Shown here: positions 3,611 to 35,590 of the stretch, one piece after another
Position numbering within the stretch: position 1 is the stretch's first letter
Layout of the letters: the number at the start of each line of letters is the position of its first letter
Source: an uncultured beta proteobacterium
Lineage (GTDB): Bacteria; Pseudomonadota; Gammaproteobacteria; Burkholderiales; SG8-41
Length of the DNA: 64,000 bases
Assembly (NCBI GenBank): GCA_903893565.1
Contig: CAITMU010000121.1
Span: 19,426-83,425 of the forward strand
Reading direction: 5' to 3'
The notes under the pieces: model-generated
What the model saw: the letters and a program-made list of their open reading frames with translations, nothing else
Databases searched by the model: none
Told to the model about the DNA's origin: nothing
Made by a program: the position numbers and the translations under genes

Positions 3611-4302
3611 GAGGAAGAGAAATTCATTGATGAACACGAAAGAAAATATCGTTTTTAAAAATATCGCGTATTTAATTTTACTGCTAAAGCCGGGTGATCT
3701 ATTTTTTAGCCGATTTTGAAACATCAATGCGGCTTATTTTTTCGCTTTTATTATTATTGATTCCAAGCGCTATTGTAATGTAATCGAAGTCCACACTAAC
3801 GCTAAAACGTGCGGCAAGTGTCCCATGAAAGGTAGAATAAGTCTTTTTTTGATGCCTGTGTACGTTTACTCATAAATCGCAAGTGAAGGCTTAATAAAAT
3901 CAGTGAGTTAGTCAATGGTCGTCCACCCTACAGTAGAAGCGTAAGCCCTCATAAGTGGCAAGTTTCTTAGTCAATTACCCCATAAACTGCACTTTTCGCC
4001 TACTATTTTGTGCATTTGAATATTCTGAGATAGGCTTCTAAGAGTCATGAAAGCACAAGGATCCATAGGGCGCTCCTAAATATGACTTTGGTTTACCAAA
4101 AGAATTGGCTCGAACGATTGGGGGCTGCTACAAGTGGGATTGAAAATTACGAAAAACATTGGTTTAGGATTGATGACCCAAATGTAGGTGAATTTAGAAA
4201 AAGTTCATCTGGGTAGTGGTAAGCGCAACCTTGTTCCAGGGGGTGTCTATCGCTCTGAATATCAACTGACTTTGTCGCGGGAGTTAATTTAGGTGGAGAA
4301 TT

Positions 4303-4599: not shown

Positions 4600-5004
4600 A
4601 TGAGAACCCAATTAAGTACATCAAAACCCCCTTTTTCTATCTTTAGCTCCATTCCCGTATCTGATGAGCTGGGCTTATTTAGGGGGAAAGGCTTACCAAA
4701 TTACAACCGAGTCAAAGATATTTTGGGGTACACGAAAGAAGATATTTCGATTGCCTCAGGCGTTCCATTTGGGTCGGTTCGTTTTGATAAGAAAATCCCG
4801 ATTGAGCTAACGCAGCGTATTACAGAGTGGGCGACTGCTATTGCCTTGGTGCATAGTTTTTTCAATGACGAAAACAAAACTATGCTTTGGTTTAAAGTTC
4901 CCAACCCCCTCTTGGGTGATGTGGCGCCGCGCGACATGATCAAGGTTGGACGCTTTAAAAAACTCTTTAAATTTATTCAAAGTGCTTTGGAAGAGAATCA
5001 ATAA
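4600..5004 (+). CDS. Xre/MbcA/ParS-like antitoxin (HTH plus DUF2384 toxin-binding domain)
   Basis: 134 aa. The C-terminal part MLWFKVPNPLLGDVAPRDMIKVGRFKKLFKFIQS fits the DUF2384 pattern (W...pnp.LgG..P.dll). It lies directly upstream of and abuts a RES-domain gene. Confidence 0.8.
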   Translation: MRTQLSTSKPPFSIFSSIPVSDELGLFRGKGLPNYNRVKDILGYTKEDISIASGVPFGSVRFDKKIPIELTQRITEWATAIALVHSFFNDENKTMLWFKVPNPLLGDVAPRDMIKVGRFKKLFKFIQSALEENQ

Positions 5005-5982
5005 TTGGCCATTCGCAAGCCAGCCCTACATCATCGGGGTCGACCCAAGCTTATTAAGAAGACGAAAAAGCTGACACCTGAAAAACGAGTAGAGCATCTA
5101 CTGGAAGAGGGCTCCCTTCAAAGCTTAATTGAGGGAAAAAAACTTAATCAAGCCTATATAAAGTATCAATGGGATTTTTATTCGGAGTTGGCCTACCAGC
5201 GAAGTTTGATCCAAGATCAGCTAATAGCGAGTCTACAAGAAAGTGCCATTGCTGGTTATCAGTTTGATGCTTGGCAACGGGTTACACGCTGGAAGTATTC
5301 TGGACATCCCTTTTCCACAGTAGGTAGCTTAGTGTCATGGGGTGGCAGATTTAATCTTGGCCAAGATATTTCTCCCATCGGGACCTTGAAAACATTTCAA
5401 GCCTTGTATTTGGCGCAAAGTCAGGCTACCGCGCTGGTGGAAGGCCTGGGAAGTGGAATGAGCAACTCCCCTTTGTCTATTGAGGAAATCGCTCTAGCCA
5501 ATAAAAGCTCTTTTGTATGCGTCTCGGTCTCCGGCGCCTTGGATCGCGTGATTGATTTGACGGATAAAGCCACCCTAGTCAAGTTTGCGAAATTAATTTC
5601 AAAATTTAAAGTGCCGCAATCTATATTAGATTCTGCCGCGCAGCTTAATATTCCGCTGCCTACTTTAATAAAAAGTCCGGGCCCTCTACTCAAGTCATTT
5701 TTAATTGAGAACTGGCGCAAGGAGCCTGCTCAATTTGACATACCGGCTAATGGGCAAATCTTTGGCCAGTTAGTTTATCTGGCCGGAATTGACGTTATCA
5801 TCTATCCATCAAGTAAGACTGGTGAGAAATGCTTCGCAATTTTTCCATCCAATTTTGATGGTAGAAATTCTTATTTGAGACTTGACGATGAGCCTCCCGA
5901 AAAATGGACTCCGAGATTCATTTCATCAGATAATTTCACGCTTTGTGAAAAAACTTCCGATGAGCTCAAATCGTTGGGCTAA
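5005..5982 (+). CDS. RES-domain toxin (NAD+-targeting MbcT/ParT-type family) with a long N-terminal extension
   Basis: Candidate RES residues are WGGRFN (Arg), ALYLAQSQATALVE (Glu) and IIYPSSK (Ser). The TTG start immediately follows the antitoxin TAA (TAATTG). Confidence 0.75.
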   Translation: MAIRKPALHHRGRPKLIKKTKKLTPEKRVEHLLEEGSLQSLIEGKKLNQAYIKYQWDFYSELAYQRSLIQDQLIASLQESAIAGYQFDAWQRVTRWKYSGHPFSTVGSLVSWGGRFNLGQDISPIGTLKTFQALYLAQSQATALVEGLGSGMSNSPLSIEEIALANKSSFVCVSVSGALDRVIDLTDKATLVKFAKLISKFKVPQSILDSAAQLNIPLPTLIKSPGPLLKSFLIENWRKEPAQFDIPANGQIFGQLVYLAGIDVIIYPSSKTGEKCFAIFPSNFDGRNSYLRLDDEPPEKWTPRFISSDNFTLCEKTSDELKSLG

Positions 5983-8684: not shown

Positions 8685-9677
8685 ATGAGATATCAAAACC
8701 GTTATTTTTGGTGCACTCTGGGGTTAATGGGTTTGTTGGGTAGTCGCACGGTTATGGCACAAGAAAAATCGCTCGCTGACACTTATCCGAGTAAGCCCAT
8801 TCACTTTATCGTGCCTTATTCTCCGGGAGGGCCCACCGACGTGTTAGCCCGGTTATTGGGGCAAAAAATGACAGAGCGCTGGGGACAACCCGTGGTGGTC
8901 GAAAACCGGGCCGGCGCCAATGGTGCGATTGGTGCTGAGTTGTTGGCAAAGTCGCCTAACGATGGCTCGGTTCTTTTTCTGGGTAATACGAGTATCCTGA
9001 CAATCAATCCGGTCATGTATAAAAAACTACCCTACGATGCCGAAAAGCAATTTCAACCGGTGAACTTAACGGTGGCAGCGCCGTTATTGCTAACGGTGCA
9101 TCCTTCCATTGGGGTTAAATCGGTGAAGGATATGATTCGTCTAGCGCAAAAACCAGGCTCCGCCTTGACCTTCGCGTCCTCGGGAACGGGGGGGGTGGCG
9201 CATTTGTCGGGGGAGTTAATGAAACTGTTAGCGCATATCGACCTCATTCATATCCCGTATAAAGGGGCAGGGCCTGCGACAGTGGACTTGATTGCGGGGC
9301 AAGTGGCGATGACCTTTACCAGTACGGTTTCTGTGATGAACCACGTCAAGGCGGGGCGTTTGCGCGGTATTGCGGTGACCACGCCTAAAAGAGCGCCTAG
9401 CTTACCTGAAGTGCCTGCAATCAGTGAGACCGTGCCTGGCTATGATGTGAGCCCTTGGTATGGGGTATTGGTGCCGGCATTAACGCCGATGGTCATTGTG
9501 AATAAAATTCATAATGAAGTGGCTAGAATTGTTAAAATTAGCGAAATAAATCAGCGATTGAGTGAAGAGGGGGGTACCGTGGTGAACGAGGGGCCGGAAG
9601 GCTTTGCTCGAATGATCACGGCAGAAAGATTAAAGTGGGCCCGTGTGGTTCAGAACGCTCAGATTCGAGGTGAATAA
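8685..9677 (+). CDS. Bug/TctC-family substrate-binding protein
   Basis: Signal peptide followed by TYPSKPIHFIVPYSPGGPTD. 330 aa. Confidence 0.9.
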   Translation: MRYQNRYFWCTLGLMGLLGSRTVMAQEKSLADTYPSKPIHFIVPYSPGGPTDVLARLLGQKMTERWGQPVVVENRAGANGAIGAELLAKSPNDGSVLFLGNTSILTINPVMYKKLPYDAEKQFQPVNLTVAAPLLLTVHPSIGVKSVKDMIRLAQKPGSALTFASSGTGGVAHLSGELMKLLAHIDLIHIPYKGAGPATVDLIAGQVAMTFTSTVSVMNHVKAGRLRGIAVTTPKRAPSLPEVPAISETVPGYDVSPWYGVLVPALTPMVIVNKIHNEVARIVKISEINQRLSEEGGTVVNEGPEGFARMITAERLKWARVVQNAQIRGE

Positions 9678-9684
9678 GTCAGGG

Positions 9685-10653
9685 ATGTTAAAAATGCATT
9701 ATGGTTGGGGTCTACTGTTCGGGTGGTGTGTGAGCGGTTTATTGCACGCGCAAAATTACCCACAAAATTACCCACAAAAGGGTGTGCGCTTAGTCATCCC
9801 ATTTACTGCCGGTGGGGCTGCGGACATTATTGGGCGTTTATTGGCCGCAGAGCTTTCGCAAAACCTGGGGCAAGCCGTGGTAGTCGATAATCGCGGCGGC
9901 GCAGGCACCGTCATTGGCACCGAGATGGTGGCGCGCGCGAGTCCGGACGGTTATAGCTTAGGTTTGATTACGCCCTCTTTTACCATTAATGGGGCGATAC
10001 GACGGCTGCCTTTTGATTCGATCAATGATTTTGCCCCGATTGCCTTGGTTGGTATTACCCCATTGATTCTGGTGACCCATCCGAGTCTGCCGGTGCATAC
10101 CGTGACAGACTTGATTCGCTTGGCGGGCCAACATCCGGGCGAGTTAGTGTACGCCTCCGCAGGCCCTGGTAGCCCTACCCATATGGGAATGGAATTATTA
10201 CGTTTTTCAGGTATACGTATGACTCATATCCCCTACAAGGGGGCGGCTCCGGCGTTGGTGGATCTGGTAGGCGGCCATGTACAGTTAATGCAAACGAGCA
10301 TCATCATCGCTAAGCCTTATATGAGTTCGATGAGACTTCGTCCCATTGCGGTGACCACGGCGCAACGGGCTAAAAATTTACCGCAAGTGCCGAGCATCGC
10401 CGAGACAATCCCAGGCTATGAAGTGCTCAATTGGTGGGGCGTGGTTGCGCCAGCCAAAACCCCGCCGGCCGTAGTCACTCGACTCAACACCGAAATTCGT
10501 CAAGTGATGAATAGGGCCTCCAGTAAAGAAAAGCTTTCCGTTGAAGGGGCAGAATCTGCCAATGGTTCACCGGTGGAGTTCGAGCAGATGCTAAAAAAAG
10601 AAATCAGCCAATGGCGACGTTTGGGTGAATCCATTCAGCTTAAGCTCGATTAG
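9685..10653 (+). CDS. Bug/TctC-family substrate-binding protein
   Basis: The track ORF starts at 9643. The Met at 9685 (MLKMHYGWGLLFGWCVSGLLHA) gives a normal signal peptide before QNYPQNYPQKGVRLVIPFTAGGAAD. Start uncertain. Confidence 0.85.
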   Translation: MLKMHYGWGLLFGWCVSGLLHAQNYPQNYPQKGVRLVIPFTAGGAADIIGRLLAAELSQNLGQAVVVDNRGGAGTVIGTEMVARASPDGYSLGLITPSFTINGAIRRLPFDSINDFAPIALVGITPLILVTHPSLPVHTVTDLIRLAGQHPGELVYASAGPGSPTHMGMELLRFSGIRMTHIPYKGAAPALVDLVGGHVQLMQTSIIIAKPYMSSMRLRPIAVTTAQRAKNLPQVPSIAETIPGYEVLNWWGVVAPAKTPPAVVTRLNTEIRQVMNRASSKEKLSVEGAESANGSPVEFEQMLKKEISQWRRLGESIQLKLD

Positions 10654-12791: not shown

Positions 12792-13922
12792 TCAGTCGAT
12801 GTTGTTGGAGACTTGTTTGATGAGTTGACCGTAGGTGGTAAAGTCACGTGCAATGCGCGCACTAAAGAGCTCGGGGGATAGTGCAATAAACTCCATGCCC
12901 CGGGCACTCCACAGTGTTTTTAACTCCGTGCTCGCAAAGCTTTGCGCTAAGGCCATATGCAGCCGATAAACAATCCCTTTGGGCAAATGCGCGGGCCCCA
13001 GTAATCCCTGCCAGCCATCCATTTCATAACCCGGTAGACCACTTTCTGCGATGGTAGGGATGAGCGGTAAGTTCGTCATACGATGGTGGCCCGTGACCCC
13101 TAAGGCTTTTAATTTACCTTGTTGGATGGGGGGTATTAAAAAGGCGGGATTATTCCACATCATATCCACCCGACCGCTGACTAAGTCGGCAATGGCCGTA
13201 GAGCCACCGCCTCGATAGGGCACGTGTAATAGTTTGATATGGGCCATAGAGGCAAACAAGGCTCCGGCAATGTGATAGGCACTGCCCACGCCATTAGATC
13301 CATAGGAGAGCCCCATGGATTTTTTGTGGGCTAAGAGTATCAACTCACGGGCATTACGAGCCGGTAATAAGGGGTGTGCGGCCCACAGAAAGGCGAAATC
13401 TCCGATAGGGGAAATAGCGGTGAAGTCTTTGGTCGGATTGAAGTTAACCTTTTGTAGATAAGGGGTGGCGGTCAGTGCAGAGCCCGGGGCTGCTAAAAGG
13501 GTATAGCCATCGGGAGCACTTTTCATCACCATTTCCGCTGCAATTACTCCGGTGGCACCTGGGTGAATATCCACAATGCATGGCTGACCCAAAACATCGG
13601 AGAGCTTTTGTGCCACTGCGCGGGTGTTTAAGTCCATGGAGCTGCCGGAGGCATAGCCGTGAATGATACGAATCGGTTTGATGGGGTAGGTACTGGAATC
13701 GTTGATCCGATTGGGTTCGGGGGGGGTGAGGCCAGAGGGAAAGCCTTGTGAGTGGGCGCCTGCCCCCCAGATTGCGCCTAAGAGGAGACAGAGGAGACGG
13801 AAAAAGGGTTGTTGGTGTTTTTTGAAAAAGGGGTTGACTCCCTTTGGCGTGAGGGTTTGAATCCCTTTGATGGTAGGCGCGAGCGCCATCAACAAAGTCA
13901 TGGGGAATAATAAGGGGCGCAT
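12792..13922 (-). CDS. Bug/TctC-family substrate-binding protein with an unusual N-terminal extension
   Basis: The core TYPIKPIRIIHGYASGSS.. and the overall length fit the Bug family. The N-terminus has two hydrophobic segments. No in-frame ATG, GTG or TTG lies between Met12 and the second hydrophobic segment. Confidence 0.8.
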   Translation of the reverse strand: MRPLLFPMTLLMALAPTIKGIQTLTPKGVNPFFKKHQQPFFRLLCLLLGAIWGAGAHSQGFPSGLTPPEPNRINDSSTYPIKPIRIIHGYASGSSMDLNTRAVAQKLSDVLGQPCIVDIHPGATGVIAAEMVMKSAPDGYTLLAAPGSALTATPYLQKVNFNPTKDFTAISPIGDFAFLWAAHPLLPARNARELILLAHKKSMGLSYGSNGVGSAYHIAGALFASMAHIKLLHVPYRGGGSTAIADLVSGRVDMMWNNPAFLIPPIQQGKLKALGVTGHHRMTNLPLIPTIAESGLPGYEMDGWQGLLGPAHLPKGIVYRLHMALAQSFASTELKTLWSARGMEFIALSPELFSARIARDFTTYGQLIKQVSNNID

Positions 13923-13928
13923 GGGTTT

Positions 13929-13938
13929 GGGGGGGGGG
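13929..13938. repeat. G10 (C10 on the minus strand) homopolymer tract 6 nt upstream of the Bug-gene ATG
   Basis: Read directly: atgggtttGGGGGGGGGGct. On the minus strand it occupies the position where a Shine-Dalgarno sequence would be expected. Confidence 0.9.
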
Positions 13939-14123
13939 CTACGAGGGATTGATGAGATTCAATGGGGTCGAGTGCTTGAGGATATGGCGTGATGTATATC
14001 TTAAGATTCAAGCATTCTTATTGGCAAGTGTAATCCAAAACGGCGCCTTACATTTCATCTAGGGCAAGCGGGCTTTGGGAGAGGAAAAAAGTCTCGTAGC
14101 GGCAGGGGCGGTTGCTCGGTCCA

Positions 14124-14177
14124 AATGGGAAGAGAAGGTGGGAAAAGTAGGTGGGAAGAGAGGGTGGGAAGAGAGGG
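14124..14177. repeat. Purine-rich 13-bp tandem repeat (GGTGGGAAGAGAG-like, about 4 units)
   Basis: Read directly: atgggaagagaag / gtgggaaaagtag / gtgggaagagagg / gtgggaagagagg. The last two units are identical. Confidence 0.8.
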
Positions 14178-14428
14178 ACGCGTTGGATGATGGGCTCCTG
14201 AGTCTGCGCGAGCCGAGTCTACTGGGTCGGGTCCTTCGGGAGAGTGAATATTCATTGAAAAAACAATCGGTTATGATCTTGATGGCGAGTTGTGCTGGGT
14301 TGTTAAGATTACCGCTTTGTGAGATATTCGTTTTTGGAAAGTGATTGCAGGCTAAATAGGCATGAGAGGCATGAGATAATGCTCGGGGTGTGATTAAAGT
14401 CCGCTTTGCGTTCGTTTACGGAGATCCT

Positions 14429-14977
14429 ATGTCAGAAATAGAAAAAAAAGTTCGATTGATTGTGCCGGAGGCGCCCCCTCCGGCCGTAGCCAAAATCAGT
14501 GAGCAGCGTGATTTTAAAACAGGTGGCATACGGCTGGGAGTATTGGATAACAGCAAGAGTAACGCCGATCATTTGCTTCAATTTATTATCGAAGGGGTGA
14601 AGGCGCATGTGAAGGTGGCCTCAGTGGTCTCACTGCGTAAACCTTCGCCCTCGGTGCCTGCTGAAAAAGCGCTGCTTGACGAATTATCGGAGACCACCGA
14701 TTGCGTCATCAGCGCGATGGCCGATTGAGGCTCCTGCACGTCGTGGAGTGTCCACGACATGTCAGAATTAAGAAAGCGCGGTTTGGTCACGGCCGTCATT
14801 TGTACTGATCCGTTTCTGAAATTGGGTAAAGCACAGTCGCGTGTTTTTGGGGTTCCGGAATTACCCTTGATTGTGATTCCTCATCCGTTAGGGGGTATTT
14901 CCCTTGAAAAAGTAGAGGGACGGGCTGAGGTGGCGATTCCTGAATTTGTCAAATTGATCAAGGAGCACATCAAGTGA
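14429..14977 (+). CDS. UGSC-motif selenoprotein (candidate), in-frame UGA = Sec at 14726-14728; function unknown
   Basis: Track ORFs 14390-14728 and 14759-14977 are in the same frame. The 30 nt between them (GSCTSWSVHD) contain no stop. The joined product reads ..CVISAMAD-U-GSCTSWSVHDMSELRKRGLV... GGAG lies 6 nt before the ATG at 14429, and no SD precedes 14759. A hairpin follows the UGA. Confidence 0.7.
14736..14762 (+). promoter_or_regulatory. SECIS-like stem-loop downstream of the in-frame UGA
   Basis: A perfect 8-bp stem, GTCGTGGA (14740-14747) / TCCACGAC (14751-14758), with loop GUG. The stem begins 12 nt after the UGA. It can extend at the base (A-U, C-G, G-U) across one mismatch. Confidence 0.55.
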
Positions 14978-16089
14978 GTGAGTTGTCGCAACTATTATTG
15001 GATCCTGAAAATAGCCTTGAGACCAAAGACGATTTTTTTGAGATCAATGCCCTTTACCTAGAAAAAGGTTGGGGGGATGGATTGCCTTTGATCCCACCCA
15101 CTGAACAAAGGGTGGCGGCGATGCTGGAGTATTGTGATCGCCCTTGGAATGAACCGATTGCTAAGATCGCGCCGCGTTACGGTGAGGCAACACCCCTGCG
15201 ATTGGCGGCTAATGCGGTGATGGCCGGATGTAAGCCCGAGTATTTTCCTTTGATTGTGTTGGCTGTTGAAGCCATGTGTGAGGAGTCATTTAACCTTTAT
15301 GGTATTCAGGCCACAACCCATATCTGTGCGCCCCTGGTGATCGTCAATGGGCCCGTGGTTAAGCAGTTGGGAATGAATAGCGGTCATAATGCGTTTGGAC
15401 CAGGAACCCACAGTAATGCCACGATTGGTCGGGCCATTCGTTTAATTTTGCTCAATATTGGTGGTGCAGTGCCTGGGCTGGGCGACATGTCGACCTTTGG
15501 TGGCCCCAATAAGTATTCATTCTGTGTGGCTGAAAATGAAGAGGCTAATCCGTGGGAGCCTTTGCATGTGGAGAGGGGCTTTCCGAAAGACTCGAGCTGC
15601 GTCACGGTCATCGGTGCTGAATGTCCTCATAACGTGAACGATCATGAGAGTATTTCAGGGCAGGGGATTTTGAAAACGATTGCCGGTTCCATGATTAGCA
15701 CGGGGGCTAATGATATTTATTATCCCGATGCGACCCCATTGATTGTGATGGGGCCTGAGCATGCGGCCAGTATTGCCAATGATGGATTTAGTAAAAAATC
15801 CGTTAAACAGTTTTTAACCGATCATGCCAAAATCCCCTTGGGTACTTTTTCTACCGAAAACATTGAACGTCGCTTTAGGGTGGCCTTTGCTTCTGTGTTT
15901 AAAAATGCGGGTTTAGATGAACCGGTGCCCATGATTCATCATGCCGATAACATTGTGATTGCTGTGATCGGTGGAGCGGGCAAGCACTCGGCTGTTTTTC
16001 CAACCTTTGGCGCTACCAAAGCGGTGACCCGTGCGCTTAAGACGAAGAATGGGGATTACGTGAAATTTATTGAGAAAATAAAGAAATAG
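14974..16089 (+). CDS. Conserved-looking hypothetical protein, translationally coupled to the UGSC gene
   Basis: 371-aa ORF. Its GTG start overlaps the upstream stop (aaGTGAgtg). Non-repetitive, globular-looking sequence (GWGDGLPLIPPTEQRV.., AANAVMAGCKPEYFP.., NATIGRAIRLILLNIGGAVPG..). I do not recognise a characterised family. Confidence 0.75.
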   Translation: MSELSQLLLDPENSLETKDDFFEINALYLEKGWGDGLPLIPPTEQRVAAMLEYCDRPWNEPIAKIAPRYGEATPLRLAANAVMAGCKPEYFPLIVLAVEAMCEESFNLYGIQATTHICAPLVIVNGPVVKQLGMNSGHNAFGPGTHSNATIGRAIRLILLNIGGAVPGLGDMSTFGGPNKYSFCVAENEEANPWEPLHVERGFPKDSSCVTVIGAECPHNVNDHESISGQGILKTIAGSMISTGANDIYYPDATPLIVMGPEHAASIANDGFSKKSVKQFLTDHAKIPLGTFSTENIERRFRVAFASVFKNAGLDEPVPMIHHADNIVIAVIGGAGKHSAVFPTFGATKAVTRALKTKNGDYVKFIEKIKK

Positions 16090-16276
16090 ATCGACATCCC
16101 CACGGCAAGTGGCTCGCCATACGGCAGGTGCAAATGGTGCAGTTCTTCAATGAGATGGGGCTGGTGTTGAATAAGTGAGGCGTAAACGGGGTAGAATTCA
16201 TCTTTAACAAATGTCCGGTTTAGAATCCGGTCTATCAGATTAATCCGCACGATTGATACGTAAATAAGGAGGACTT

Positions 16277-16702
16277 ATGGAACAACTCGAACGTCCGTTG
16301 CCGGCGCCGCTGGCCCCAGAGGCGAAGCCGTACTGGGAAGGGTTAAAGCAAGACAAGCTCATGCTTCCACAATGTAAGGACTGTGGGAAAGCGCATTTTT
16401 ACCCGCGCATTCTCTGCCCGCACTGTCACTCCCGCAATCTCACGTGGGTCGAGGCGAGCGGTCGGGGCAAGTTATTTGCCTTTGAAATCCTTTACCGCTC
16501 ATTTAACCCCGCGGTGAAGACACCTCTGCCTTATGTGCTAGCGATGATCGATCTGGAAGAAGGCCCTCGCATGTTGTCTAACCTCATCAACATCAAGCCC
16601 GATCCGGCCTTAATCCACTGCGACATGCCAGTGAATGCCGTCTTCGTAAAGCAAAATGACAACTTCACCCTTCCGTTCTTCCAACCTGCCGAGGGGAAAT
16701 AA
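16277..16702 (+). CDS. DUF35 Zn-ribbon/OB-fold protein (thiolase-associated)
   Basis: Contains CKDCGKAHFYPRILCPHCHS (a 4-Cys zinc ribbon) followed by an OB-fold-sized C-terminus. A strong SD (AAGGAGG) precedes it. It lies immediately upstream of a thiolase-like gene, which is the usual pairing. Confidence 0.85.
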   Translation: MEQLERPLPAPLAPEAKPYWEGLKQDKLMLPQCKDCGKAHFYPRILCPHCHSRNLTWVEASGRGKLFAFEILYRSFNPAVKTPLPYVLAMIDLEEGPRMLSNLINIKPDPALIHCDMPVNAVFVKQNDNFTLPFFQPAEGK

Positions 16703-16704
16703 TC

Positions 16705-17868
16705 ATGGCCCAACACGACTTTATGCGCGAGCTTTCGAACACGGCTTGTATCGTCGGCGCAGCCGAGAGCGACGAAATGGGTATTTTGCCGCACAAGAGC
16801 CAGATGGCCTTGCACTTGGAATCGATATCCAACGCGGTTGCGGATGCCGGACTCAAGGTCAGTGATGTGGACGGCATTTTCACGGCCGGTGCGCATTCAC
16901 CGGCCCTGATCGCCGAAGCGCTGGGCATCACGCCGCGCTACGTCGACGGCACGAGTGTGGGCGGTTGCTCCTTCATCATCATGGTGGAGCACGCGATAGC
17001 GGCGCTGCATCATCACCTGTGCGATGTCGCGGTCATTACTCATGGCGAAAGCGGCCGCTCGCAGGTGGGCGTAACGCGTGTGCGCGACACCAGCATCGCC
17101 GGCTGTTACGAAATCCCCTATGGCTTTGGCGCCCCGCCGACCTGGTTCGGCCTCATCACCACGCGGCATATGCACGAATACGGCACCACGCTCGAACAAT
17201 GGGCGCAGGTGGCGGTGTCTACGCGTCAGTGGGCAGCCCTGAATCCGAAGGCCCTATACCGCGATCCTATGACGATCGACCAGGTGCTCAAGGCCAAGAT
17301 GATCGCTTACCCGTTCACCGTGCTGAACATCTGCCTCGTCACCGATGCCGGGGGCGCAATAGTGCTCACGCGCGCGGACCGGGCGCGTGACTGCGCCAAG
17401 AAACCCGTCTACGTTCGTGGCACCGGCGAGGCGACTGAGCACGTGTCCGTGACGCAGATGAAAGGCCTGCCGTTGAGCAAGGCCACGCGCATGTCCAGCG
17501 AGCGCGCCTTCAAGATGGCCGGCGTTAGCCACGGCGACTTCGATCACCTCATGCTGTATGACGCGTTTACCTCCGGCCCTCCGATCATGCTCGAATCGAT
17601 GGGCTTCGCCAAGCCCGGTGAGGGCGTCTCGTTCTTCGAAAACGGCAAGTCAACGCCGGGCGGATCACTGCCGATCAACACCAACGGTGGTGGACTGTCT
17701 TATACGCATACGGGGATGTATGGCATGTTCCCGTTGATTGAGGCCACGCGCCAGTTGCGCGGCGAGTGTGGCGCACGGCAGGTGCCCAATGTGAAGCTGT
17801 CGCTGGTCAATGGCATGGGCGGCATGCTATCGGCAGCGGGTACTGCGGTCTTGTCGAACGAAAAATAA
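16705..17868 (+). CDS. Thiolase-like protein (SCP-x / DUF35-partner type)
   Basis: 387 aa. Carries ..INTNGGGLSYTHTGMYG.. near the C-terminus and has a thiolase-fold length. Starts 3 nt after the DUF35 stop. Confidence 0.85.
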   Translation: MAQHDFMRELSNTACIVGAAESDEMGILPHKSQMALHLESISNAVADAGLKVSDVDGIFTAGAHSPALIAEALGITPRYVDGTSVGGCSFIIMVEHAIAALHHHLCDVAVITHGESGRSQVGVTRVRDTSIAGCYEIPYGFGAPPTWFGLITTRHMHEYGTTLEQWAQVAVSTRQWAALNPKALYRDPMTIDQVLKAKMIAYPFTVLNICLVTDAGGAIVLTRADRARDCAKKPVYVRGTGEATEHVSVTQMKGLPLSKATRMSSERAFKMAGVSHGDFDHLMLYDAFTSGPPIMLESMGFAKPGEGVSFFENGKSTPGGSLPINTNGGGLSYTHTGMYGMFPLIEATRQLRGECGARQVPNVKLSLVNGMGGMLSAAGTAVLSNEK

Positions 17869-18330
17869 CGGCTCGCGGAGTGAGTGCCGCAAACGCCGGT
17901 CACAGGCGTGTCGCCTCTGAGGTCAAGATTGCCCTGAATGTGCGATCTTGACCCAAAAACCTTCCAACGTAGGAATGTTGAGCATTGATACCACAGTCGC
18001 TCCCGCCCCGTTGATCCACTCTAGGCTCAAAGACACTGAAAAGTGGGGAGGAAGTGGTGTTGTGTCGTTTGTCTTCCTACGTCGAGGGCTTTTTCTTGAT
18101 GCTCTTGAGGGGGAAAAAAAGAAATGAGCCGTTTGGGGTTTGTGTAGGAACTATATTCGGTTTTTAGCGTCTGTCAGTGTAGGCAGCCTTTTTTTATGGA
18201 TGCTCCTAGACCCTATCAATCGTCCCACGCAGCGGATCCCTTCATTTTTATGCCAATGATTGTATTCTTGAGGCATAGAAAAATGTTAACCTTTGTTTTT
18301 ATGTTTTTCTAACTCAAGAAGCATTCCCTT

Positions 18331-19281
18331 ATGGTTTCCCGACGTCTGCCCCCCCTTAACTCATTGAAAGCGTTCGAAGCGACGGCTCGACACCTCAGTG
18401 TTAAGAAAGCGGCATTAGAGTTAAATGTCACCCCCGCTGCAGTCAGTCACCAATTGCGCATTCTGGAGGAGTATTTAGGCGTTGAGCTCTTTCACCGCTT
18501 TAATCGCTCGCTCGAACTGACCCAAGTGGCCAAGGGTGGGCTAGCGAAGCTAGCGCAAGGATTTGACTGCCTGATGGAGTCGGTCGATTTGTTACGCGCC
18601 CAACAAGGGGGGGGCTCTTTGACCGTGAGTGCTGCGCCGTCATTTGCCTCTCGCTGGTTGATGCCCCGATTGCATCGGTTTATTGCAGCGCATCCGGAGA
18701 TTGATGTAAAAATTTCAGCTCGTATGCGCCGCGTCAGTGTCGATGGCAAGGGGGATGTAGCCGAAAGGGCCACGGTGGAGACTTGGCTAGCGGATTCGGA
18801 TGTGGCTATCCTTTATGGCTTAGGCAATATTTTAGGTTTCAATGTGGAGCGATTGCTTGAACTGACTATCACCCCTATTTGCAGTCCAAAACTGCTCACA
18901 GGAGAGTTTCCCTTACGTGAACCTTCCGATTTAAAGCATCATTTACTGCTGCATGATGATACCGGGCAGCTTTATGACAATGAAGCCTTTTGGACCGTTT
19001 GGCTGGCGGCGGCGGGGGTTACGGATGTGGATGTGAACAAGGGGCCTCATTTTAGCCATGCTGTGCTTGCTTTTGAGGCCGCCATTGATTCGGTGGGGAT
19101 ATTGGCCAGTATGCCGGTGTTGGCCGGTGAAGAAATTGCTTCAGGTCGTTTGGTAAAACCCTTTGATTTATCGGTGAAATTGCCTGACAGTTATTATATG
19201 GTTTCTGCCGAACATTCCGAGCAACGTCCGGCAGTGGTGGCTTTTTTACAATGGTTACGAGAAGAGGCTGCCCGTATTTAG
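18331..19281 (+). CDS. LysR-family transcriptional regulator (GcvA-like)
   Basis: N-terminal HTH region LNSLKAFEATARHLSVKKAALELNVTPAAVSHQLRILEEYLGVELFHR. 316 aa. Confidence 0.9.
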   Translation: MVSRRLPPLNSLKAFEATARHLSVKKAALELNVTPAAVSHQLRILEEYLGVELFHRFNRSLELTQVAKGGLAKLAQGFDCLMESVDLLRAQQGGGSLTVSAAPSFASRWLMPRLHRFIAAHPEIDVKISARMRRVSVDGKGDVAERATVETWLADSDVAILYGLGNILGFNVERLLELTITPICSPKLLTGEFPLREPSDLKHHLLLHDDTGQLYDNEAFWTVWLAAAGVTDVDVNKGPHFSHAVLAFEAAIDSVGILASMPVLAGEEIASGRLVKPFDLSVKLPDSYYMVSAEHSEQRPAVVAFLQWLREEAARI

Positions 19282-23401: not shown

Positions 23402-24385
23402 ATGAAAATAGCTATTTTAGATGACTATCTGCATCAATCTTCCGTTAGTGCCGATTGGTCCCGTCTTGCCCGAGAGTGCGAGATCACCGTTTTTGATCAA
23501 GTCATTGCCGCGAAAGACCGGGCGAAGGTTTTGAGTCCTTTTGATATTATTTGCACGTTAAGGGAAAGGACCCCCATAGACCGATCCTTGTTAGCGCAAT
23601 TGCCGCGACTGAAGATGATTGCCATTACCGGTCTTTACAATAGGACTTTGGATGTGGCGGCAGCCCTTGAACAGGGGGTCGTGGTGTCTTATACCGAGTT
23701 AAAGGGGGCCTACCGTAAAGCAACCTCCGAATTGACCTGGGGGTTAATCTTATCAGTGGCTCGCCATATCCCCTTTGAAGCCTCGCAGATGCAGCAAGGC
23801 GGCTGGCAGCGCACGGTGGGCGTGACCTTACATGGTAGGACCTTAGGTCTTCTGGGCTTGGGTAGACAAGCTCGCCATATGGTTCCAGTGGCCAAAGCCT
23901 TTGGGATGAATGTGATGGCATGGAGTACAAACCTCACCGAGGCCGCCGCAGCCGAGCAGGGTGTGCAACGGGTGGACAAAGAGGTGCTTTTTCGCCAAAG
24001 TGACGTGCTGAGTATTCACCTCGTTTTAGGCGACAGGTCAAAGGGCATGGTCGGTGCTCAGGAATTGGGCTTAATGAAGCCTACCGCCATCTTAGTCAAT
24101 ACGGCGCGGGGGCCGATTATCGATGAGCCAGCGCTCATCGAAGCGCTACAGGCTAAGCGCATTGCGGGGGCAGGGTTGGATGTTTTTACCCATGAACCCT
24201 TAGCCGATGACAGTCCTTTGCGTAGATTACCCAATGTGGTGTTGACCCCTCATCAAGGGCACAATGTGGAAGAGTTTTTTAAGGTGGCCTACGCGGATGT
24301 AGTAGAAAACATAGAGGCTTTTTTAGCCGGAAATCCCATCCGGCGTCTCACTCCAGAGAGGAACCAAAGTGCGATACAAGGCTAA
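23402..24385 (+). CDS. D-isomer-specific 2-hydroxyacid dehydrogenase family protein
   Basis: NAD-binding region GRTLGLLGLGRQARHMV and catalytic region ..LVNTARGPIIDE..GAGLDVFTHEP..TPHQG. Confidence 0.85.
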   Translation: MKIAILDDYLHQSSVSADWSRLARECEITVFDQVIAAKDRAKVLSPFDIICTLRERTPIDRSLLAQLPRLKMIAITGLYNRTLDVAAALEQGVVVSYTELKGAYRKATSELTWGLILSVARHIPFEASQMQQGGWQRTVGVTLHGRTLGLLGLGRQARHMVPVAKAFGMNVMAWSTNLTEAAAAEQGVQRVDKEVLFRQSDVLSIHLVLGDRSKGMVGAQELGLMKPTAILVNTARGPIIDEPALIEALQAKRIAGAGLDVFTHEPLADDSPLRRLPNVVLTPHQGHNVEEFFKVAYADVVENIEAFLAGNPIRRLTPERNQSAIQG

Positions 24386-25337
24386 TCGGGTAGGAAGGGT
24401 GTGCAAGCTCTTGATGTCTTGGGGTGTGTTGATGTTTTCAACCGCCCTGTGGGGACAAAATTATCCTTTGAAGCCGATTCGATTCATTATCGGTTTTCCG
24501 GCAGGCGGTAGCGCCGATGCTGCGGCCCGGCCACTGGTAGCGCACATGGGACGCCAATTAGGCATTGGCTTTGTCATCGAAAATCATGGCGGTGCGGCTG
24601 GAAGTGTGGCTGCACAGATCGTGGCGCGGGCGCCCGCGGATGGCTATACGCTGTTGTGGTCCAGTCCTGGGGCTTTAACGATTAACCGAATACTAGAAAA
24701 AAATTTACCCTATAACCCTGACACGGCTTTCATCCCCGTGGGACGAGCGTTGAGTTTTTGTAATGCCCTGATTGTGGGGCTAGATACAGAGTTTAATTCG
24801 TTGACGCAATTGATTGCTGCGGCAAAAGCGCGTCCCGGCCAGATCAGTTATGCCACGCAAGGGGTAGGATCTGCCGGACATTTGTCGGCGAAGATGCTTG
24901 AGAAAATGAGTCAGATGGAAATGTCCCATGTGCCTTATAAAGGCGGCACTGAAATTTTAACTGCGGTGGTCGGTGGTCAATTGCCTGCCGCTTTTCTGAG
25001 TTCTACCTCCGCGGCGAGTTTAAAACAACGGATACGTATTTTGGCCGTTACGAGCTTGCATCGCACCTCCCTATTGCCCGAGGTGGCTTCAATGAGTGAG
25101 CTAGGGATTAAAGGCTATGATGCGAGCTTTTGGTATGGGATATTGGTGCCGGCCCATACCTCTGAAAAAATCGTATCCACGTTAAATCAGGCGTTAAAGC
25201 AGGCCATAGCGGATCCTGAGATTGAGCGTTTGGAGAAAAATATTGGTTTAAGTCCTGATGCGTCAAGTCCGGCTGAGTTCGTGCAAATTATCAAAAACGA
25301 TTTTATCCGATGGAAAAAAGTCATTGATCCAGCCTAA
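24369..25337 (+). CDS. Bug/TctC-family substrate-binding protein
   Basis: GTG start preceded by GAGAGGA. Signal peptide followed by QNYPLKPIRFIIGFPAGGSAD. Confidence 0.85.
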   Translation: MRYKANRVGRVCKLLMSWGVLMFSTALWGQNYPLKPIRFIIGFPAGGSADAAARPLVAHMGRQLGIGFVIENHGGAAGSVAAQIVARAPADGYTLLWSSPGALTINRILEKNLPYNPDTAFIPVGRALSFCNALIVGLDTEFNSLTQLIAAAKARPGQISYATQGVGSAGHLSAKMLEKMSQMEMSHVPYKGGTEILTAVVGGQLPAAFLSSTSAASLKQRIRILAVTSLHRTSLLPEVASMSELGIKGYDASFWYGILVPAHTSEKIVSTLNQALKQAIADPEIERLEKNIGLSPDASSPAEFVQIIKNDFIRWKKVIDPA

Positions 25338-34585: not shown

Positions 34586-35117
34586 TTTTACTCCTGACAA
34601 GTGGAATTGGGACTGCTAACAGCCGATGTAAAGCGTGAAGCGAGGACATACAGAAATAGAGACAGAACAAACAATAAACGCGGGAAAATCATCAAAGCCA
34701 TCACTGCCTTCCCGTTTTTAGGCTCAGGGGTAGCGGGACGCTTTAATTTTTTTCTGTTTTTTTGGCCATTGAATCTGCCGATTAAGGCAGGGGAATGGGA
34801 AAAAAGCATAATTTCCTAAGTTAACTGATCGGCTTAGCCACTGTCAAGTGCGCACTCATCTTCGTTGTCCTAACGGGCTTAAATCGAGTCCCGGAGCGTT
34901 CACGCCCCATTTTTGAAGGGTGGGGGTTGGCAGGGGCTGCGAGTTTTCCCGCCTCACGTGAGGTTTCACACGAATTTCACTATTTTGGGTAAACTCGGGC
35001 TTCAGGGAGCTTGGTTTAAGTATCATAAATCGGTAACACCGCTCATAACGAGGTGCCGCCAGATCTCTGAAGCCCATTTTTTACTTTTTAAGCCCCTCAA
35101 TCCGTGAGTCCTATCCT

Positions 35118-35579
35118 ATGGTTGACCGCGTTGTTTTTGTGGTTGTCTTATTATTAGCCGGTGTTTATCTGTGGGCGAGCGCTCAAATCCCGGAGTTAGA
35201 GATGGGCGACCCCCTGGGGCCCAAAGCCTTTCCTCGTTTTCTGGGGGTGGGGTTGATAATTTGTGCGGGGATGCTTTTTTTTGAGATGCGAATGAAGTCT
35301 CTTAAAGCCTCACGCGTAGCGGCTGGGCAGGGATCTAAACCTAGGGCCTGGGGATTTATTTTGATCATGGTGGTGGTGATCGGTCTATATTTTCTTATGT
35401 TTGAACGGTTAGGTTACGTGATTTCAACCAGTCTTTTTTTGTGCCTCACGACCAGTTACTTTAATCGTGGAAAGACCATGGCCAATGTCTGTACTAGCTT
35501 AGGCTATAGCGGCGCGAGCTATTACTTATTTAGTGTTCTACTAGGCGTTAATCTTCCCCACGGACTGTTACCCTTTTAG
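35118..35579 (+). CDS. tctB: Tripartite tricarboxylate transporter small membrane subunit TctB
   Basis: 153-aa protein with four transmembrane-like segments, directly upstream of tctA. Confidence 0.8.
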   Translation: MVDRVVFVVVLLLAGVYLWASAQIPELEMGDPLGPKAFPRFLGVGLIICAGMLFFEMRMKSLKASRVAAGQGSKPRAWGFILIMVVVIGLYFLMFERLGYVISTSLFLCLTTSYFNRGKTMANVCTSLGYSGASYYLFSVLLGVNLPHGLLPF

Positions 35580-35590
35580 GCCAAACACTC

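What the first reader, a model, noticed from the sequence alone, without database searches (positions are those of the whole stretch)
14429..14977. Two called ORFs are one gene joined by an in-frame UGA in a U-G-S-C motif with a SECIS-like hairpin: candidate selenoprotein of unknown function
What the sequence shows:
- ORFs 14390-14728 and 14759-14977 share a frame (both start coordinates are 2 mod 3).
- The only interruption is TGA at 14726-14728. The 30 nt after it (GSCTSWSVHD) are open.
- The second ORF has no Shine-Dalgarno sequence of its own.
- The local context reads CVISAMAD-U-GSC, a U-x-x-C redox-type motif.
- Twelve nt after the UGA a perfect 8-bp hairpin starts (GTCGTGGA-GUG-TCCACGAC, 14740-14758). 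Its loop contains G and U, and the stem extends at the base. This is the position and shape expected for a bacterial SECIS.

From memory, and not verifiable here: computational selenoproteome surveys list a 'UGSC-containing' family, and NCBI uses the name 'UGSC family (seleno)protein'. As far as I know no biochemical function has been assigned.

Standard gene callers will split or truncate this gene.
Basis: partly seen in the sequence, partly recalled or inferred. Interest (0 to 1): 0.85.

Follow-up and report, generated by a model that had tools for sequence, protein, structure and literature searches.

The report
UGSC selenoprotein gene with conserved partner
The two short ORFs are one gene for a known but functionally uncharacterised selenocysteine-containing protein (UGSC family), and comparison with hundreds of relatives shows it is always paired with, and in some organisms fused to, an unannotated 371-residue protein encoded right after it.

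Summary
Window 14429-14977 is one 182-codon gene interrupted only by TGA at 14726-14728. With Cys in place of Sec, the product passes the curated models for the UGSC family (NCBIfam NF041046, Pfam PF24696). All full-length homologs are colinear and carry Cys at that column. 94 related loci carry TGA there.

The 8-bp hairpin at 14740-14758 is under RNA-level selection only when the codon is TGA. Its codons are frozen in 92 distinct Sec-form sequences, while flanking conserved residues and the Cys-form genes vary freely at synonymous sites. That is the signature of a bacterial SECIS. The sel genes could not be tested.

The family has been known since 2007-2008 and its function is unknown, so this is a new member of a known kind. 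Four things were added here:
- A flavodoxin-like predicted fold, not the thioredoxin fold guessed in the literature.
- Weak similarity to the Sec region of GrdB/PrdB reductases.
- A 371-aa neighbour (14974-16089, no Pfam or NCBIfam family, no structural match in PDB) adjacent in 126 of 132 loci and fused to UGSC in about a third of its family representatives.
- One fusion of that neighbour to a thioredoxin-reductase-like domain.

The parts
14419..14422 (+). Shine-Dalgarno-like GGAG, 6 nt upstream of the start codon of the UGSC gene
   Evidence: Read directly from the sequence. Gene calls on identical public contigs start at the corresponding ATG.
14429..14977 (+). UGSC-family selenoprotein gene: 182 codons including one in-frame UGA (Sec100), ending in stop TGA at 14975-14977
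   Evidence: Translation. NF041046 126.3 bits and PF24696 139.7 bits. Colinear with full-length Cys homologs.
14537..14569 (+). Conserved loop after strand 1 (G-V-L-D-N-S-K-S-N-A-D; L39, N41, K43 and N45 invariant)
   Evidence: Alignment A1. In the predicted model it lies at the C-terminal edge of the parallel sheet.
14726..14728 (+). UGA codon read as selenocysteine (U100), first residue of the U-G-S-C motif
   Evidence: TGA sits at this column in all 83 loci L001-L083 and in 11 further metagenome loci. TGC or TGT sits there in the Cys-form loci. Gly+1 uses 4 codons and Ser+2 uses 6, so the stretch between the TGA and ATG 14759 is selected at the protein level.
14735..14737 (+). TGC codon for Cys103, the resolving cysteine of the U-x-x-C motif
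   Evidence: Invariant column in alignments A1 and A3.
14740..14758 (+). SECIS hairpin: 8-bp stem GUCGUGGA/UCCACGAC with loop GUG, 11 nt after the UGA, encoded by the codons for (T)SWSVHD
   Evidence: Present in the minimum-free-energy fold. 99.8% of cells are paired across 80 distinct sequences, with one compensatory G-C to A-U change and two G-U changes. Synonymous diversity is 0-0.04 inside and 0.29-0.68 outside, p = 3e-5. AGT-GTC is found in 11 of 11 Sec forms and 0 of 17 Cys forms of one clade.
14879..14896 (+). Conserved P-H-P-L-G-G loop after strand 5 (P151, H152, P153 and G156 invariant)
   Evidence: Alignment A1. It aligns with the F-P-L-G loop of PrdB/GrdB-like proteins in hhalign.
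14959..14964 (+). AAGGAG Shine-Dalgarno sequence for the partner gene, lying inside the end of the UGSC gene
   Evidence: Read directly from the sequence.
14974..16089 (+). Partner gene: a 371-aa conserved protein with no family assignment. Its GTG start overlaps the UGSC stop (GTGA), which suggests translational coupling
   Evidence: No Pfam, NCBIfam or PDB sequence match. Confident AlphaFold2 model (pLDDT 85, pTM 0.86) with no significant PDB fold match. Adjacent to UGSC in 126 of 132 determinable loci and in all 5 look-ups started from partner proteins. Fused to a UGSC domain in about 53 of the 150 best family representatives.

Best explanation
Window 14429-14977 is a single gene for a 182-residue UGSC-family selenoprotein.

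**Recoding (well supported).**
- The UGA at 14726-14728 is recoded to selenocysteine.
- The signal is a SECIS hairpin (14740-14758) that starts 11 nt downstream and is written into the codons for T-S-W-S-V-H-D.
- By established knowledge of bacterial Sec insertion, SelB carrying Sec-tRNA(Sec) would bind this hairpin. This step is inferred.

**Protein (predicted).**
- It is predicted to be a five-stranded parallel alpha/beta protein of the flavodoxin type.
- U100-G-S-C103 sits at the N-terminal cap of helix 3, on the active-site edge of the sheet.
- From the U-x-x-C geometry, I infer that it cycles between selenol/thiol and selenenylsulfide.

**Partner (strongly supported by comparison).**
- The protein does not work alone. 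It is one half of a two-part enzyme.
- The other half is the 371-aa protein encoded immediately downstream (14974-16089), whose start overlaps the UGSC stop.
- In other organisms the two are one polypeptide.

**Mechanism (inferred).**
- The U/C-x-x-C centre delivers reducing equivalents to the partner, or acts as the nucleophile in a reaction carried out on it.
- The partner holds the substrate site: an invariant Cys86 and many invariant His, Glu, Asp and Lys residues.
- The centre would be re-reduced by a thioredoxin-reductase-type flavoprotein.

**Substrate (unknown).** Gene neighbourhoods point loosely to breakdown of organic acids, acyl-CoA compounds or aromatic compounds.
For: **Single gene and family membership**
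- One frame with one internal TGA.
- NF041046 126.3 bits (cut-off 125) and PF24696 139.7 bits (cut-off 25).
- Colinear Cys homologs carrying ADCGSCTSWSVHD.

**Sec decoding**
- TGA at this column in all 83 loci L001-L083 and 11 further metagenome loci.
- Protein-level selection between the TGA and the next ATG: Gly+1 uses 4 codons and Ser+2 uses 6.
- TGA is a genuine stop in 8 of 48 window genes, including sdhB and prpD.
- Hairpin codons are frozen in Sec forms only. The Mann-Whitney test on synonymous diversity gives p = 3e-5. Fisher's exact test gives 5e-8 within one clade.
- One compensatory change and two wobble changes in the stem.

**Fold**
- AlphaFold2 model with pLDDT 83 and a (beta-alpha)5 topology.
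- Only flavodoxin-like matches in PDB.

**Partner**
- Adjacent in 68 of 74 genome loci (downstream) and 58 of 58 metagenome loci (upstream).
- Adjacent in all 5 look-ups started from the partner side.
- Among the 150 best family representatives: 19 full fusions, about 31 fusions cut at the UGA, and 3 in the reverse order.

**Redox relay**
- P0361 is the partner fused to a thioredoxin-reductase-like Pyr_redox_2 domain with a CAVC motif.

**Similarity to GrdB/PrdB**
- 10 of 20 family members hit TIGR01917 residues 333-406.
- hhalign against PrdB/GrdB-like reads gives P = 5e-4 over 74 columns, with Sec aligned to Sec and Cys to Cys.
Against: - No sel gene or tRNA-Sec was found in the window or in any fetched locus, so the decoding machinery is assumed rather than shown.
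- There is no experimental evidence of selenium incorporation.
- The NF041046 score is only 1.3 bits above its cut-off, and that is with Cys substituted for Sec.
- The link to GrdB/PrdB is weak. There is no Pfam GRDB hit, the HH-suite probability is 21-31%, and single-sequence comparisons fail.
- Some fused UGSC domains have lost both Cys/Sec positions (P0349, P0398, P0409, P0419). The redox centre is therefore not essential to the partner in every lineage.
- Six loci lack an adjacent partner (L036, L052, L070, L071, L079, L082).
- The other neighbouring genes are variable, so no substrate can be inferred.
- Only one thioredoxin-reductase fusion was seen.
Confidence: 0.85

Rival explanations
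1. The TGA is a real stop. The locus is either a broken gene or two separate small genes: a 99-aa product, and a 72-aa product starting at ATG 14759.
For: - Gene callers annotate it this way on every public contig.
- An ATG follows the hairpin, with a GGAG 10 nt upstream.
- That Met is conserved in 81 of 92 Sec-form sequences.
Against: - The ten codons between the TGA and the ATG are conserved as protein while varying synonymously at Gly+1 and Ser+2.
- They are identical to the Cys-form motif.
- The TGA aligns exactly with an invariant Cys.
- The second Sec clade has no ATG after the hairpin.
- The same TGA is kept in 94 loci that are 56-86% identical in protein sequence, which is incompatible with decay.
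Confidence: 0.03
2. The hairpin is not a SECIS. It is a by-product of the conserved amino-acid sequence S-W-S-V-H-D, or a transcriptional or translational pause site. The UGA is read by some other route, such as near-cognate read-through or a reassigned code.
For: - The residues S-W...H-D already force six complementary base pairs, and the Cys forms keep a weaker 6-bp version.
- There is no Rfam match.
- The fold z-score is only -1.08.
- Covariation is minimal because the stem hardly varies.
Against: - The codon choices that complete the 8-bp stem and the GUG loop (AGT, GTC, ACG, TCG) are fixed in 92 of 92 Sec forms.
- Cys forms of the same clade never have AGT at that position (0 of 17).
- Position and shape match the bacterial SECIS rules as I recall them: about 11 nt of spacer, and G and U in the apical loop.
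- TGA terminates ordinary genes in this window.
Confidence: 0.04
3. UGSC is a free-standing thioredoxin-like thiol/selenol oxidoreductase, as the literature assumes. Its link to the neighbouring gene is incidental or merely regulatory.
For: - It has a U-x-x-C redox-type motif.
- Reviews list it among the Trx-like-fold selenoproteins.
- A few paralogs (the UGAC-type loci L070, L071, L079 and L082) lack an adjacent partner.
Against: - The predicted fold is a flavodoxin-like parallel sheet, not a thioredoxin fold.
- Adjacency reaches 95% across two phyla even though the gene order is inverted between them.
- Fusions are frequent, and occur in both orders.
- The genomes holding orphan paralogs L070 and L082 also carry a complete pair elsewhere: L008 with L070, and L066 with L082.
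Confidence: 0.1

Closest known systems
UGSC family (seleno)protein (NCBIfam NF041046; Pfam PF24696). Called 'UGSC-containing protein' by Zhang and Gladyshev, 2007-2008.
   Same: - Passes both curated models.
- Same U/C-G-S-C-T-S-W-S-V-H-D motif.
- Same Sec/Cys alternation.
- Same length as the full-length Cys members.
- The literature describes the family as a selenoprotein of unknown function, abundant in non-marine aquatic metagenomes. That fits the freshwater Betaproteobacteria genome bins that hold the closest relatives.
   Different: Nothing essential: it is a member. Two details differ from what the literature says.
- The model predicts a flavodoxin-like fold rather than the 'likely Trx-like fold'.
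- The 2008 paper mentions a fusion to a domain it calls 'Unknown_1'. That is probably the partner described here, but the figure is held only as an image and could not be compared.
Selenoprotein B of glycine reductase and PrdB of D-proline reductase (TIGR01917; Pfam PF07355 GRDB)
   Same: - The local architecture is the same: strand, then U-x-x-C, then helix, then strand, followed later by a P-x-L-G loop.
- 10 of 20 UGSC members hit the Sec region of TIGR01917.
- Profile-profile comparison gives P = 5e-4, with Sec aligned to Sec.
- Both work with a second protein subunit.
- From my own knowledge, both are re-reduced through thiol systems of the thioredoxin-reductase type. Here that link rests on a single fusion.
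   Different: - The scores are far below the family cut-offs (21 bits against 602), and there is no PF07355 hit.
- UGSC lacks the large N-terminal part of GrdB/PrdB.
- The partner is not a GrdE/PrdA-type pyruvoyl proprotein; no Gly_reductase domain occurs in any neighbourhood examined.
- The host organisms are Burkholderiales and Acidimicrobiia from freshwater and soil, not amino-acid-fermenting clostridia.
Bacterial SECIS elements, with the E. coli fdhF type as the reference
   Same: - A hairpin immediately downstream of the UGA and inside the coding sequence.
- About 11 nt between the UGA and the stem.
- G and U in a small apical loop.
- These criteria are recalled from the literature and were not computed here.
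   Different: - The loop is very short (GUG closed by an A-U pair).
- No bulged U was identified.
- The sequence is almost invariant across two phyla, because it also encodes an invariant peptide.
- No Rfam model covers it.
Redox selenoproteins with CxxU or UxxC motifs on a thioredoxin fold (SelW-like, Prx-like, Trx-like, DsbA-like)
   Same: A Sec/Cys pair two residues apart, at the N-terminus of a helix. Cys-containing homologs exist.
   Different: The predicted topology is a five-stranded, all-parallel (beta-alpha)5 sandwich. The best PDB matches are flavodoxin, WrbA and azoreductase at TM 0.4-0.5, and there is no thioredoxin-fold match.

Membership tests
UGSC family (seleno)protein (NF041046 / PF24696) | Scores above the curated HMM cut-offs | tested here: met
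   NF041046 scores 126.3 bits against 125, which is borderline and was obtained with Cys substituted for Sec. PF24696 scores 139.7 bits against 25.
UGSC family (seleno)protein (NF041046 / PF24696) | U/C-G-S-C motif at the conserved column, colinear with full-length homologs | tested here: met
   A98, D99, [U/C]100, G101, S102, C103, T104, S105, W106, H109 and D110 are invariant in a 20-sequence alignment. Homologs are colinear across the site.
UGSC family (seleno)protein (NF041046 / PF24696) | Sec-encoding members carry an in-frame UGA followed by a conserved SECIS | tested here: met
   TGA in 94 loci. Hairpin codons are frozen only in the TGA forms.
Selenoprotein (general) | Host genome encodes selA, selB, selC (tRNA-Sec) and selD | not testable with these tools
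   None are present in the 64-kb window or in the fetched loci, which hold no tRNA-Sec.
Selenoprotein (general) | Selenium is physically incorporated at the UGA position | not testable with these tools
   Requires 75Se labelling or mass spectrometry.
Bacterial SECIS | Stem-loop a short fixed distance 3' of the UGA, with G/U in the apical loop, conserved among orthologs | tested here: met
   11-nt spacer, 8-bp stem, GUG loop. 99.8% of cells paired across 80 distinct sequences. SelB binding itself cannot be tested.
GrdB/PrdB selenoprotein B family (TIGR01917 / PF07355) | Scores above the family cut-off | tested here: not met
   TIGR01917 gives 21.3 bits against a cut-off of 602. PF07355 gives no hit even at E = 1.
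GrdB/PrdB selenoprotein B family (TIGR01917 / PF07355) | Homology of the Sec-containing region | tested here: inconclusive
   10 of 20 members hit residues 333-406 at E <= 0.01. hhalign gives P = 5e-4 to 1e-3 with Sec aligned to Sec, but a probability of only 21-31%. Single sequences give P = 0.07 and 0.5.
GrdB/PrdB selenoprotein B family (TIGR01917 / PF07355) | Encoded together with a pyruvoyl proprotein subunit (GrdE or PrdA) | tested here: not met
   No such domain occurs in any neighbourhood examined. The constant neighbour is an unrelated 371-aa protein.
Thioredoxin-fold redox selenoproteins | Thioredoxin fold (mixed sheet, CxxC at the start of helix 1) | tested here: not met
   The AlphaFold2 model is a (beta-alpha)5 all-parallel sandwich. 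The best Foldseek matches are flavodoxin-like. This rests on a prediction made from a Cys-form homolog (P0022), not on a solved structure.

The most novel reading that the evidence does not exclude
UGSC and the unannotated 371-aa protein together form a widespread, uncharacterised two-part oxidoreductase.
- The two parts are sometimes a single chain.
- The 371-aa family has 6,886 cluster representatives.
- The large subunit has a fold with no solved relative.
- The small subunit is a stripped-down relative of the selenocysteine domain of the glycine and proline reductases, and is recharged by a thioredoxin-reductase-type flavoprotein.

If this is right, one of the most abundant environmental selenoprotein families would be the redox arm of a new enzyme class in aerobic freshwater and soil bacteria.
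Probability: 0.4. Interest if true: 0.65.

Novelty: new member of a known kind. Interest (0 to 1): 0.4.

Why it matters
**The finding itself.** It is a correct call of a known selenoprotein family. Its main practical value is for annotation. Every public gene call examined for this locus and its Sec-form relatives splits or truncates the gene at the UGA.

[quoted passage not shown] The comparative results here give a concrete way to approach that question:
- an obligate partner protein that no family database covers;
- natural fusions of the two proteins;
- one fusion of the partner to a thioredoxin-reductase-like domain;
- a predicted fold that contradicts the thioredoxin-like assumption.

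The two genes can now be co-expressed and tested as one enzyme.

Tried and rejected
- **Rfam.** Nothing at gathering threshold on the whole window, and nothing at E <= 10 on 14690-14810.
- **PDB by sequence.** Profiles of UGSC and of the partner gave no meaningful hit.
- **Fold search for the partner.** The best match was class I fumarate hydratase at E = 6e-3 and TM 0.26-0.30, which is not significant.
- **Relaxed Pfam scan.** Scanning 49 partner sequences at E <= 10 gave only noise.
- **Pfam GRDB.** No hit for UGSC members even at E = 1.
- **Single-sequence hhalign.** Comparisons with two GOS GrdB-like reads gave P = 0.07 and 0.5. Only the profile-profile comparison reached 5e-4.
- **Structure prediction of the window protein itself.** A Cys-form homolog, P0022, was modelled instead.
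- **'Unknown_1' fusion figure.** The figure in the 2008 paper is stored as an image, so it could not be compared with the partner.
- **526-aa database entries.** Three of them looked like fusions but were only over-extended ORF calls.
- **Promoter and terminator scan of 13900-18400.** Counts were at chance level.
- **tRNA-Sec.** ARAGORN found none in the window or in any fetched locus.
- **Other conserved neighbours.** Clustering the neighbouring ORFs found no universal neighbour apart from the partner.
Full report
**1. The observation**

- Reading 14200-15200 and translating 14390-14977 shows one reading frame with a single internal stop, TGA at 14726-14728.
- The context is ...TDCVISAMAD-*-GSCTSWSVHD-M..., and the frame stays open through to TGA at 14975-14977.
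- The hairpin GUCGUGGA-GUG-UCCACGAC occupies 14740-14758, with 11 nt between the UGA and the first stem base. It is part of the minimum-free-energy fold, with a few extra pairs at its base.
- The probable start is ATG 14429, preceded by GGAG at 14419-14422. Gene callers use the same start on identical public contigs.
- One small correction: a GGAG (14745-14748) lies 10 nt before ATG 14759, but it is inside the hairpin.
- Within this window alone the hairpin is only suggestive:
  - The fold z-score is -1.08.
  - There are 17 perfect hairpins of at least 8 bp in 64 kb, against 6.5 expected.

**2. Family membership**

- With Cys in place of Sec, the 182-aa product matches NCBIfam NF041046 'UGSC family (seleno)protein' at 126.3 bits (cut-off 125). 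It matches Pfam PF24696 at 139.7 bits (cut-off 25).
- A search of 5.8 billion proteins returned 103 relatives:
  - About 70 are 173-198 aa long and carry ADCGSCTSWSVHD.
  - About 30 end exactly at ...SAMAD, which is where a gene caller stops at the UGA.
  - One entry, P0001, was read through with Trp at that position.
- The alignment is colinear across the site. The invariant residues are A98, D99, [U/C]100, G101, S102, C103, T104, S105, W106, H109, D110 and, further on, P151, H152, P153 and G156.

**3. Is the UGA decoded, and is the hairpin a SECIS?**

*Loci collected.*
- A genome scan gave 80 loci from uncultured Betaproteobacteria/Burkholderiales genome bins, 56-86% identical in protein to the window's gene.
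- All 80, plus three metagenome contigs that carry this same locus, have TGA at the column.
- A metagenome scan seeded with Cys forms gave three groups:
  - 18 loci with TGC or TGT in the same TSWSVHD subfamily;
  - 11 more TGA loci from a different clade with an LTGSAD motif;
  - a further all-Cys subfamily with the motif CGSCTAYSVHD.

*Codon usage across 92 distinct TGA-bearing sequences.*
- The codons after the UGA are essentially invariant: TGC ACG TCG TGG AGT GTC CAC GAC.
- AGT, GTC and TCG are each found in 92 of 92.
- Conserved residues on either side use two to six codons.

*Statistics.*
- Synonymous diversity is 0-0.04 for the seven hairpin codons and 0.29-0.68 for 27 flanking conserved codons (Mann-Whitney p = 3e-5).
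- Within the LTGSAD clade, AGT-GTC occurs in 11 of 11 Sec forms and in 0 of 17 Cys forms, which use AGC with GTG or GTC (Fisher p = 5e-8). This test is not corrected for phylogeny.

*The stem.*
- It is paired in 99.8% of cells.
- There is one compensatory G-C to A-U change (L006), two G-U changes (L019, L069) and one break (L060).

*The interval between the TGA and ATG 14759.*
- Gly+1 uses four codons. Ser+2 uses six, from both the TCN and AGY codon boxes.
- This interval is therefore under protein-level selection, and it can only be translated by reading through the UGA.

*TGA elsewhere in the window.* It is an ordinary stop in 8 of 48 genes, including sdhB and prpD.

Together these results rule out a pseudogene, two separate genes, and a reassigned genetic code. 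They show that the hairpin is selected as RNA only when the codon is UGA. No Rfam family matches it.

**4. What could not be shown**

- The window holds no selA, selB or selD and no tRNA-Sec. None of the fetched loci holds a tRNA-Sec.
- The rest of the genome is not available, so the Sec machinery is assumed.
- The window is a chromosomal region of 48.9% G+C rich in TCA-cycle and tricarboxylate genes: sdhCAB, gltA, sucAB-lpd, mdh, prpCD, two acnA copies and many Bug/TctC binding proteins.

**5. What is already known**

- The family was named 'UGSC-containing protein' by 2007 and described as 'a selenoprotein of unknown function'. It was noted in Hyphomonas neptunium.
- In the 2008 Global Ocean Sampling analysis it was among the major selenoprotein families, with 255 Sec and 21 Cys sequences, and was most frequent in non-marine samples. 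[quoted passage not shown]
- A 2026 review still lists it, with NF041046, among families whose functions 'remain largely uncharacterized'.
- No paper in the library gives a function.

**6. Fold**

- An AlphaFold2 model of a Cys-form homolog (P0022, 56-sequence alignment, pLDDT 83, pTM 0.77) is a five-stranded (beta-alpha)5 protein.
- The C/U-G-S-C motif sits at the N-terminal cap of the helix that follows strand 3.
- The best PDB matches are flavodoxin, WrbA, azoreductase and similar proteins at TM 0.4-0.5. No thioredoxin-fold match appears.
- The other invariant residues are the L-D-N-x-K-x-N loop after strand 1 and the P-H-P-L-G-G loop after strand 5. They lie on the same edge of the sheet, which is the usual active-site or interface edge for this type of fold. 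That last point is an inference.

**7. Relation to GrdB/PrdB**

- 10 of 20 UGSC sequences hit residues 333-406 of TIGR01917 (glycine reductase selenoprotein B) at E <= 0.01.
- I built a 21-sequence alignment of PrdB/GrdB-like reads from Dataset S1 of the 2008 paper.
- Comparing it with the UGSC profile by hhalign gave P = 5e-4 over 74 columns. Sec aligned to Sec, the second Cys to Cys, and P-H-P-L-G to F-P-L-G.
- Against this: Pfam GRDB does not hit, single sequences are not significant, and the HH-suite probability is only 21-31%.
- I treat the relationship as plausible but unproven.

**8. The partner gene**

*In the window.*
- The ORF at 14974-16089 (371 aa) starts at a GTG that overlaps the UGSC stop (GTGA). 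It has its own AAGGAG at 14959-14964.

*No known relative.*
- It has no Pfam, NCBIfam or PDB sequence relative.
- Its AlphaFold2 model is confident (pLDDT 85, pTM 0.86), yet has no significant fold match in PDB.

*Family size and conservation.*
- It has thousands of homologs, and every one that carries a source name is called 'hypothetical protein'.
- An exhaustive profile search found 6,886 cluster representatives at E <= 1e-3.
- Invariant residues include C86 (in N-A-V-x-A-G-C), T114, T115, F-G-P-G 141-144, N-A-T-x-G-R-A-x-R-L 148-157, K180, E187, E216, H219, N220, D223, E225, E262, H263 and G-G-x-G-K-H 333-338.

*Adjacency.*
- It lies immediately downstream of UGSC in 68 of 74 determinable Betaproteobacteria loci.
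- It lies immediately upstream, on the same strand, in 58 of 58 determinable loci from the metagenome scan. There it is 40-48% identical to the window's partner.
- The nearest named relatives of those metagenome proteins come from Acidimicrobiia and other Actinobacteria.
- So the pairing is kept across two phyla even though the gene order is inverted.
- Five look-ups started from partner proteins all found a PF24696 gene next door.

*Fusions among the 150 best partner-family representatives.*
- 19 carry a complete N-terminal UGSC domain, for example P0350, P0357 and P0358 with D-C-G-S/N-C.
- About 31 begin with only the half of UGSC that follows the Sec site. This is what a Sec-type fusion looks like after a gene caller cuts it at the UGA.
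- 3 have the partner followed by the N-terminal half of UGSC, ending at the Sec site.

The fusions are Rosetta-stone evidence that the two proteins are parts of one enzyme. This is probably the 'UGSC/Unknown_1' fusion of 2008, but that figure is stored only as an image.

**9. Clues to mechanism**

- One representative, P0361, is the partner fused to a thioredoxin-reductase-like Pyr_redox_2 domain with a CAVC motif. This points to a relay from NAD(P)H through a flavoprotein to a dithiol or selenol-thiol centre.
- Some fused UGSC domains have lost both redox residues (P0349, P0398, P0409, P0419). The large protein is therefore probably the catalytic core, and the U/C-x-x-C centre an electron-delivering or nucleophilic accessory.
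- The other neighbouring genes vary:
  - In this window: acyl-CoA synthetases, Bug/TctC binding proteins, a DUF35/thiolase pair and a LysR regulator.
  - Elsewhere: muconate-cycloisomerase-like, DyP peroxidase, intradiol dioxygenase, acyl-CoA dehydrogenase, CoA-transferase, short-chain dehydrogenase, P450 and methyltransferase genes.
- These hint at organic-acid or aromatic catabolism but do not identify a substrate.

**10. Verdict**

- The finding is real and correctly interpreted: a UGSC-family selenoprotein gene that gene callers split.
- It is a new member of a known family, so it would not surprise a specialist.
- Four additions give moderate interest:
  - codon-level proof of the SECIS;
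  - a non-thioredoxin predicted fold;
  - an obligate and often fused partner that no family database covers;
  - a link to thioredoxin reductase.
- They turn an 18-year-old 'function unknown' into a testable two-protein system.

Noticed in passing
L070, L071, L079, L082, L054 (UGSC match at about 10001-10550 in L070 and L079): A small clade of Sec-form paralogs has U-G-A-C instead of U-G-S-C. Wherever enough flank is available, no partner gene is adjacent. The neighbours are TctC, CoA-transferase-like, acyl-CoA dehydrogenase and LLM oxidoreductase genes. The genomes holding L070 and L082 also hold a normal UGSC-partner pair elsewhere (L008 and L066).
   Followed up: partly
Proteins P0349, P0398, P0409, P0419 (fusions from the representative search): These UGSC-partner fusions have a UGSC domain in which both the Sec/Cys and the second Cys are lost, for example A-E-I-G-G-S. 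In some lineages the domain appears to be kept for a non-redox role.
   Followed up: partly
Protein P0361 (695 aa): The partner domain is fused at its C-terminus to a thioredoxin-reductase-like pyridine-nucleotide disulfide oxidoreductase with a CAVC motif. It was the only such case among the 150 best representatives, and its genomic context could not be fetched.
   Followed up: partly
Proteins P0363 (717 aa) and P0423 (741 aa): Two diverged copies of the partner domain in tandem within one polypeptide, with no Pfam hit.
   Followed up: no
L113:2603-2660: A Sec-form locus with an altered motif, U-G-S-C-T-A-S-S-V-H-D. Its 5' stem arm no longer matches the conserved hairpin. It may be a decaying copy or may use a different SECIS fold.
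   Followed up: no
window 14464-14484: A second perfect 8-bp G+C-rich hairpin (GCCGGAGG-CGCCC-CCTCCGGC) lies inside the N-terminal coding region of the UGSC gene, over the V-P-E-A-P-P-P-A codons.
   Followed up: no
window 4600-5982: A 134-aa ORF directly followed by a 325-aa protein with a RES domain, according to the Pfam call on an identical public contig. This looks like a RES-type toxin-antitoxin pair.
   Followed up: no
window 31907-34600 (-) and 44723-47416 (-): Two full-length aconitate hydratase AcnA paralogs (897 aa each) lie within 13 kb. The second sits next to the methylcitrate-cycle genes prpD (47567-49024) and prpC (49149-50330).
   Followed up: no
window 35118-40215: A cluster of two ORFs with no NCBIfam hit (153 and 503 aa), followed by an isocitrate/isopropylmalate-dehydrogenase-like gene and a LeuC/LeuD-like dehydratase pair. 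The sizes of the first two ORFs suggest TctB/TctA, which I did not test; if so, this would be a tricarboxylate utilisation cluster.
   Followed up: no
window 1618-3727, 8685-10653, 12792-13922, 24369-25337: At least six Bug/TctC-family periplasmic binding-protein genes lie in the first 26 kb of the window. This is typical of Burkholderiales.
   Followed up: no
Proteins P0096 (179 aa) and P0102 (163 aa): Database entries that join part of a UGSC protein directly to part of the partner, with large internal pieces missing. They may be deletion remnants or assembly chimeras. P0102 is seen on 5 contigs.
   Followed up: no
L006, L008, L069, L070 (titled Bordetella parapertussis); L041, L063, L076 (titled Streptomycetaceae or Streptomyces): The record titles of these genome bins look implausible for loci whose UGSC genes belong to the same Betaproteobacteria-type clade as the others. 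The taxonomic labels are probably wrong.
   Followed up: no
whole window: TGA is the least-used stop codon: 8 of 48 genes, against 28 TAA and 12 TAG, at 48.9% G+C.
   Followed up: partly
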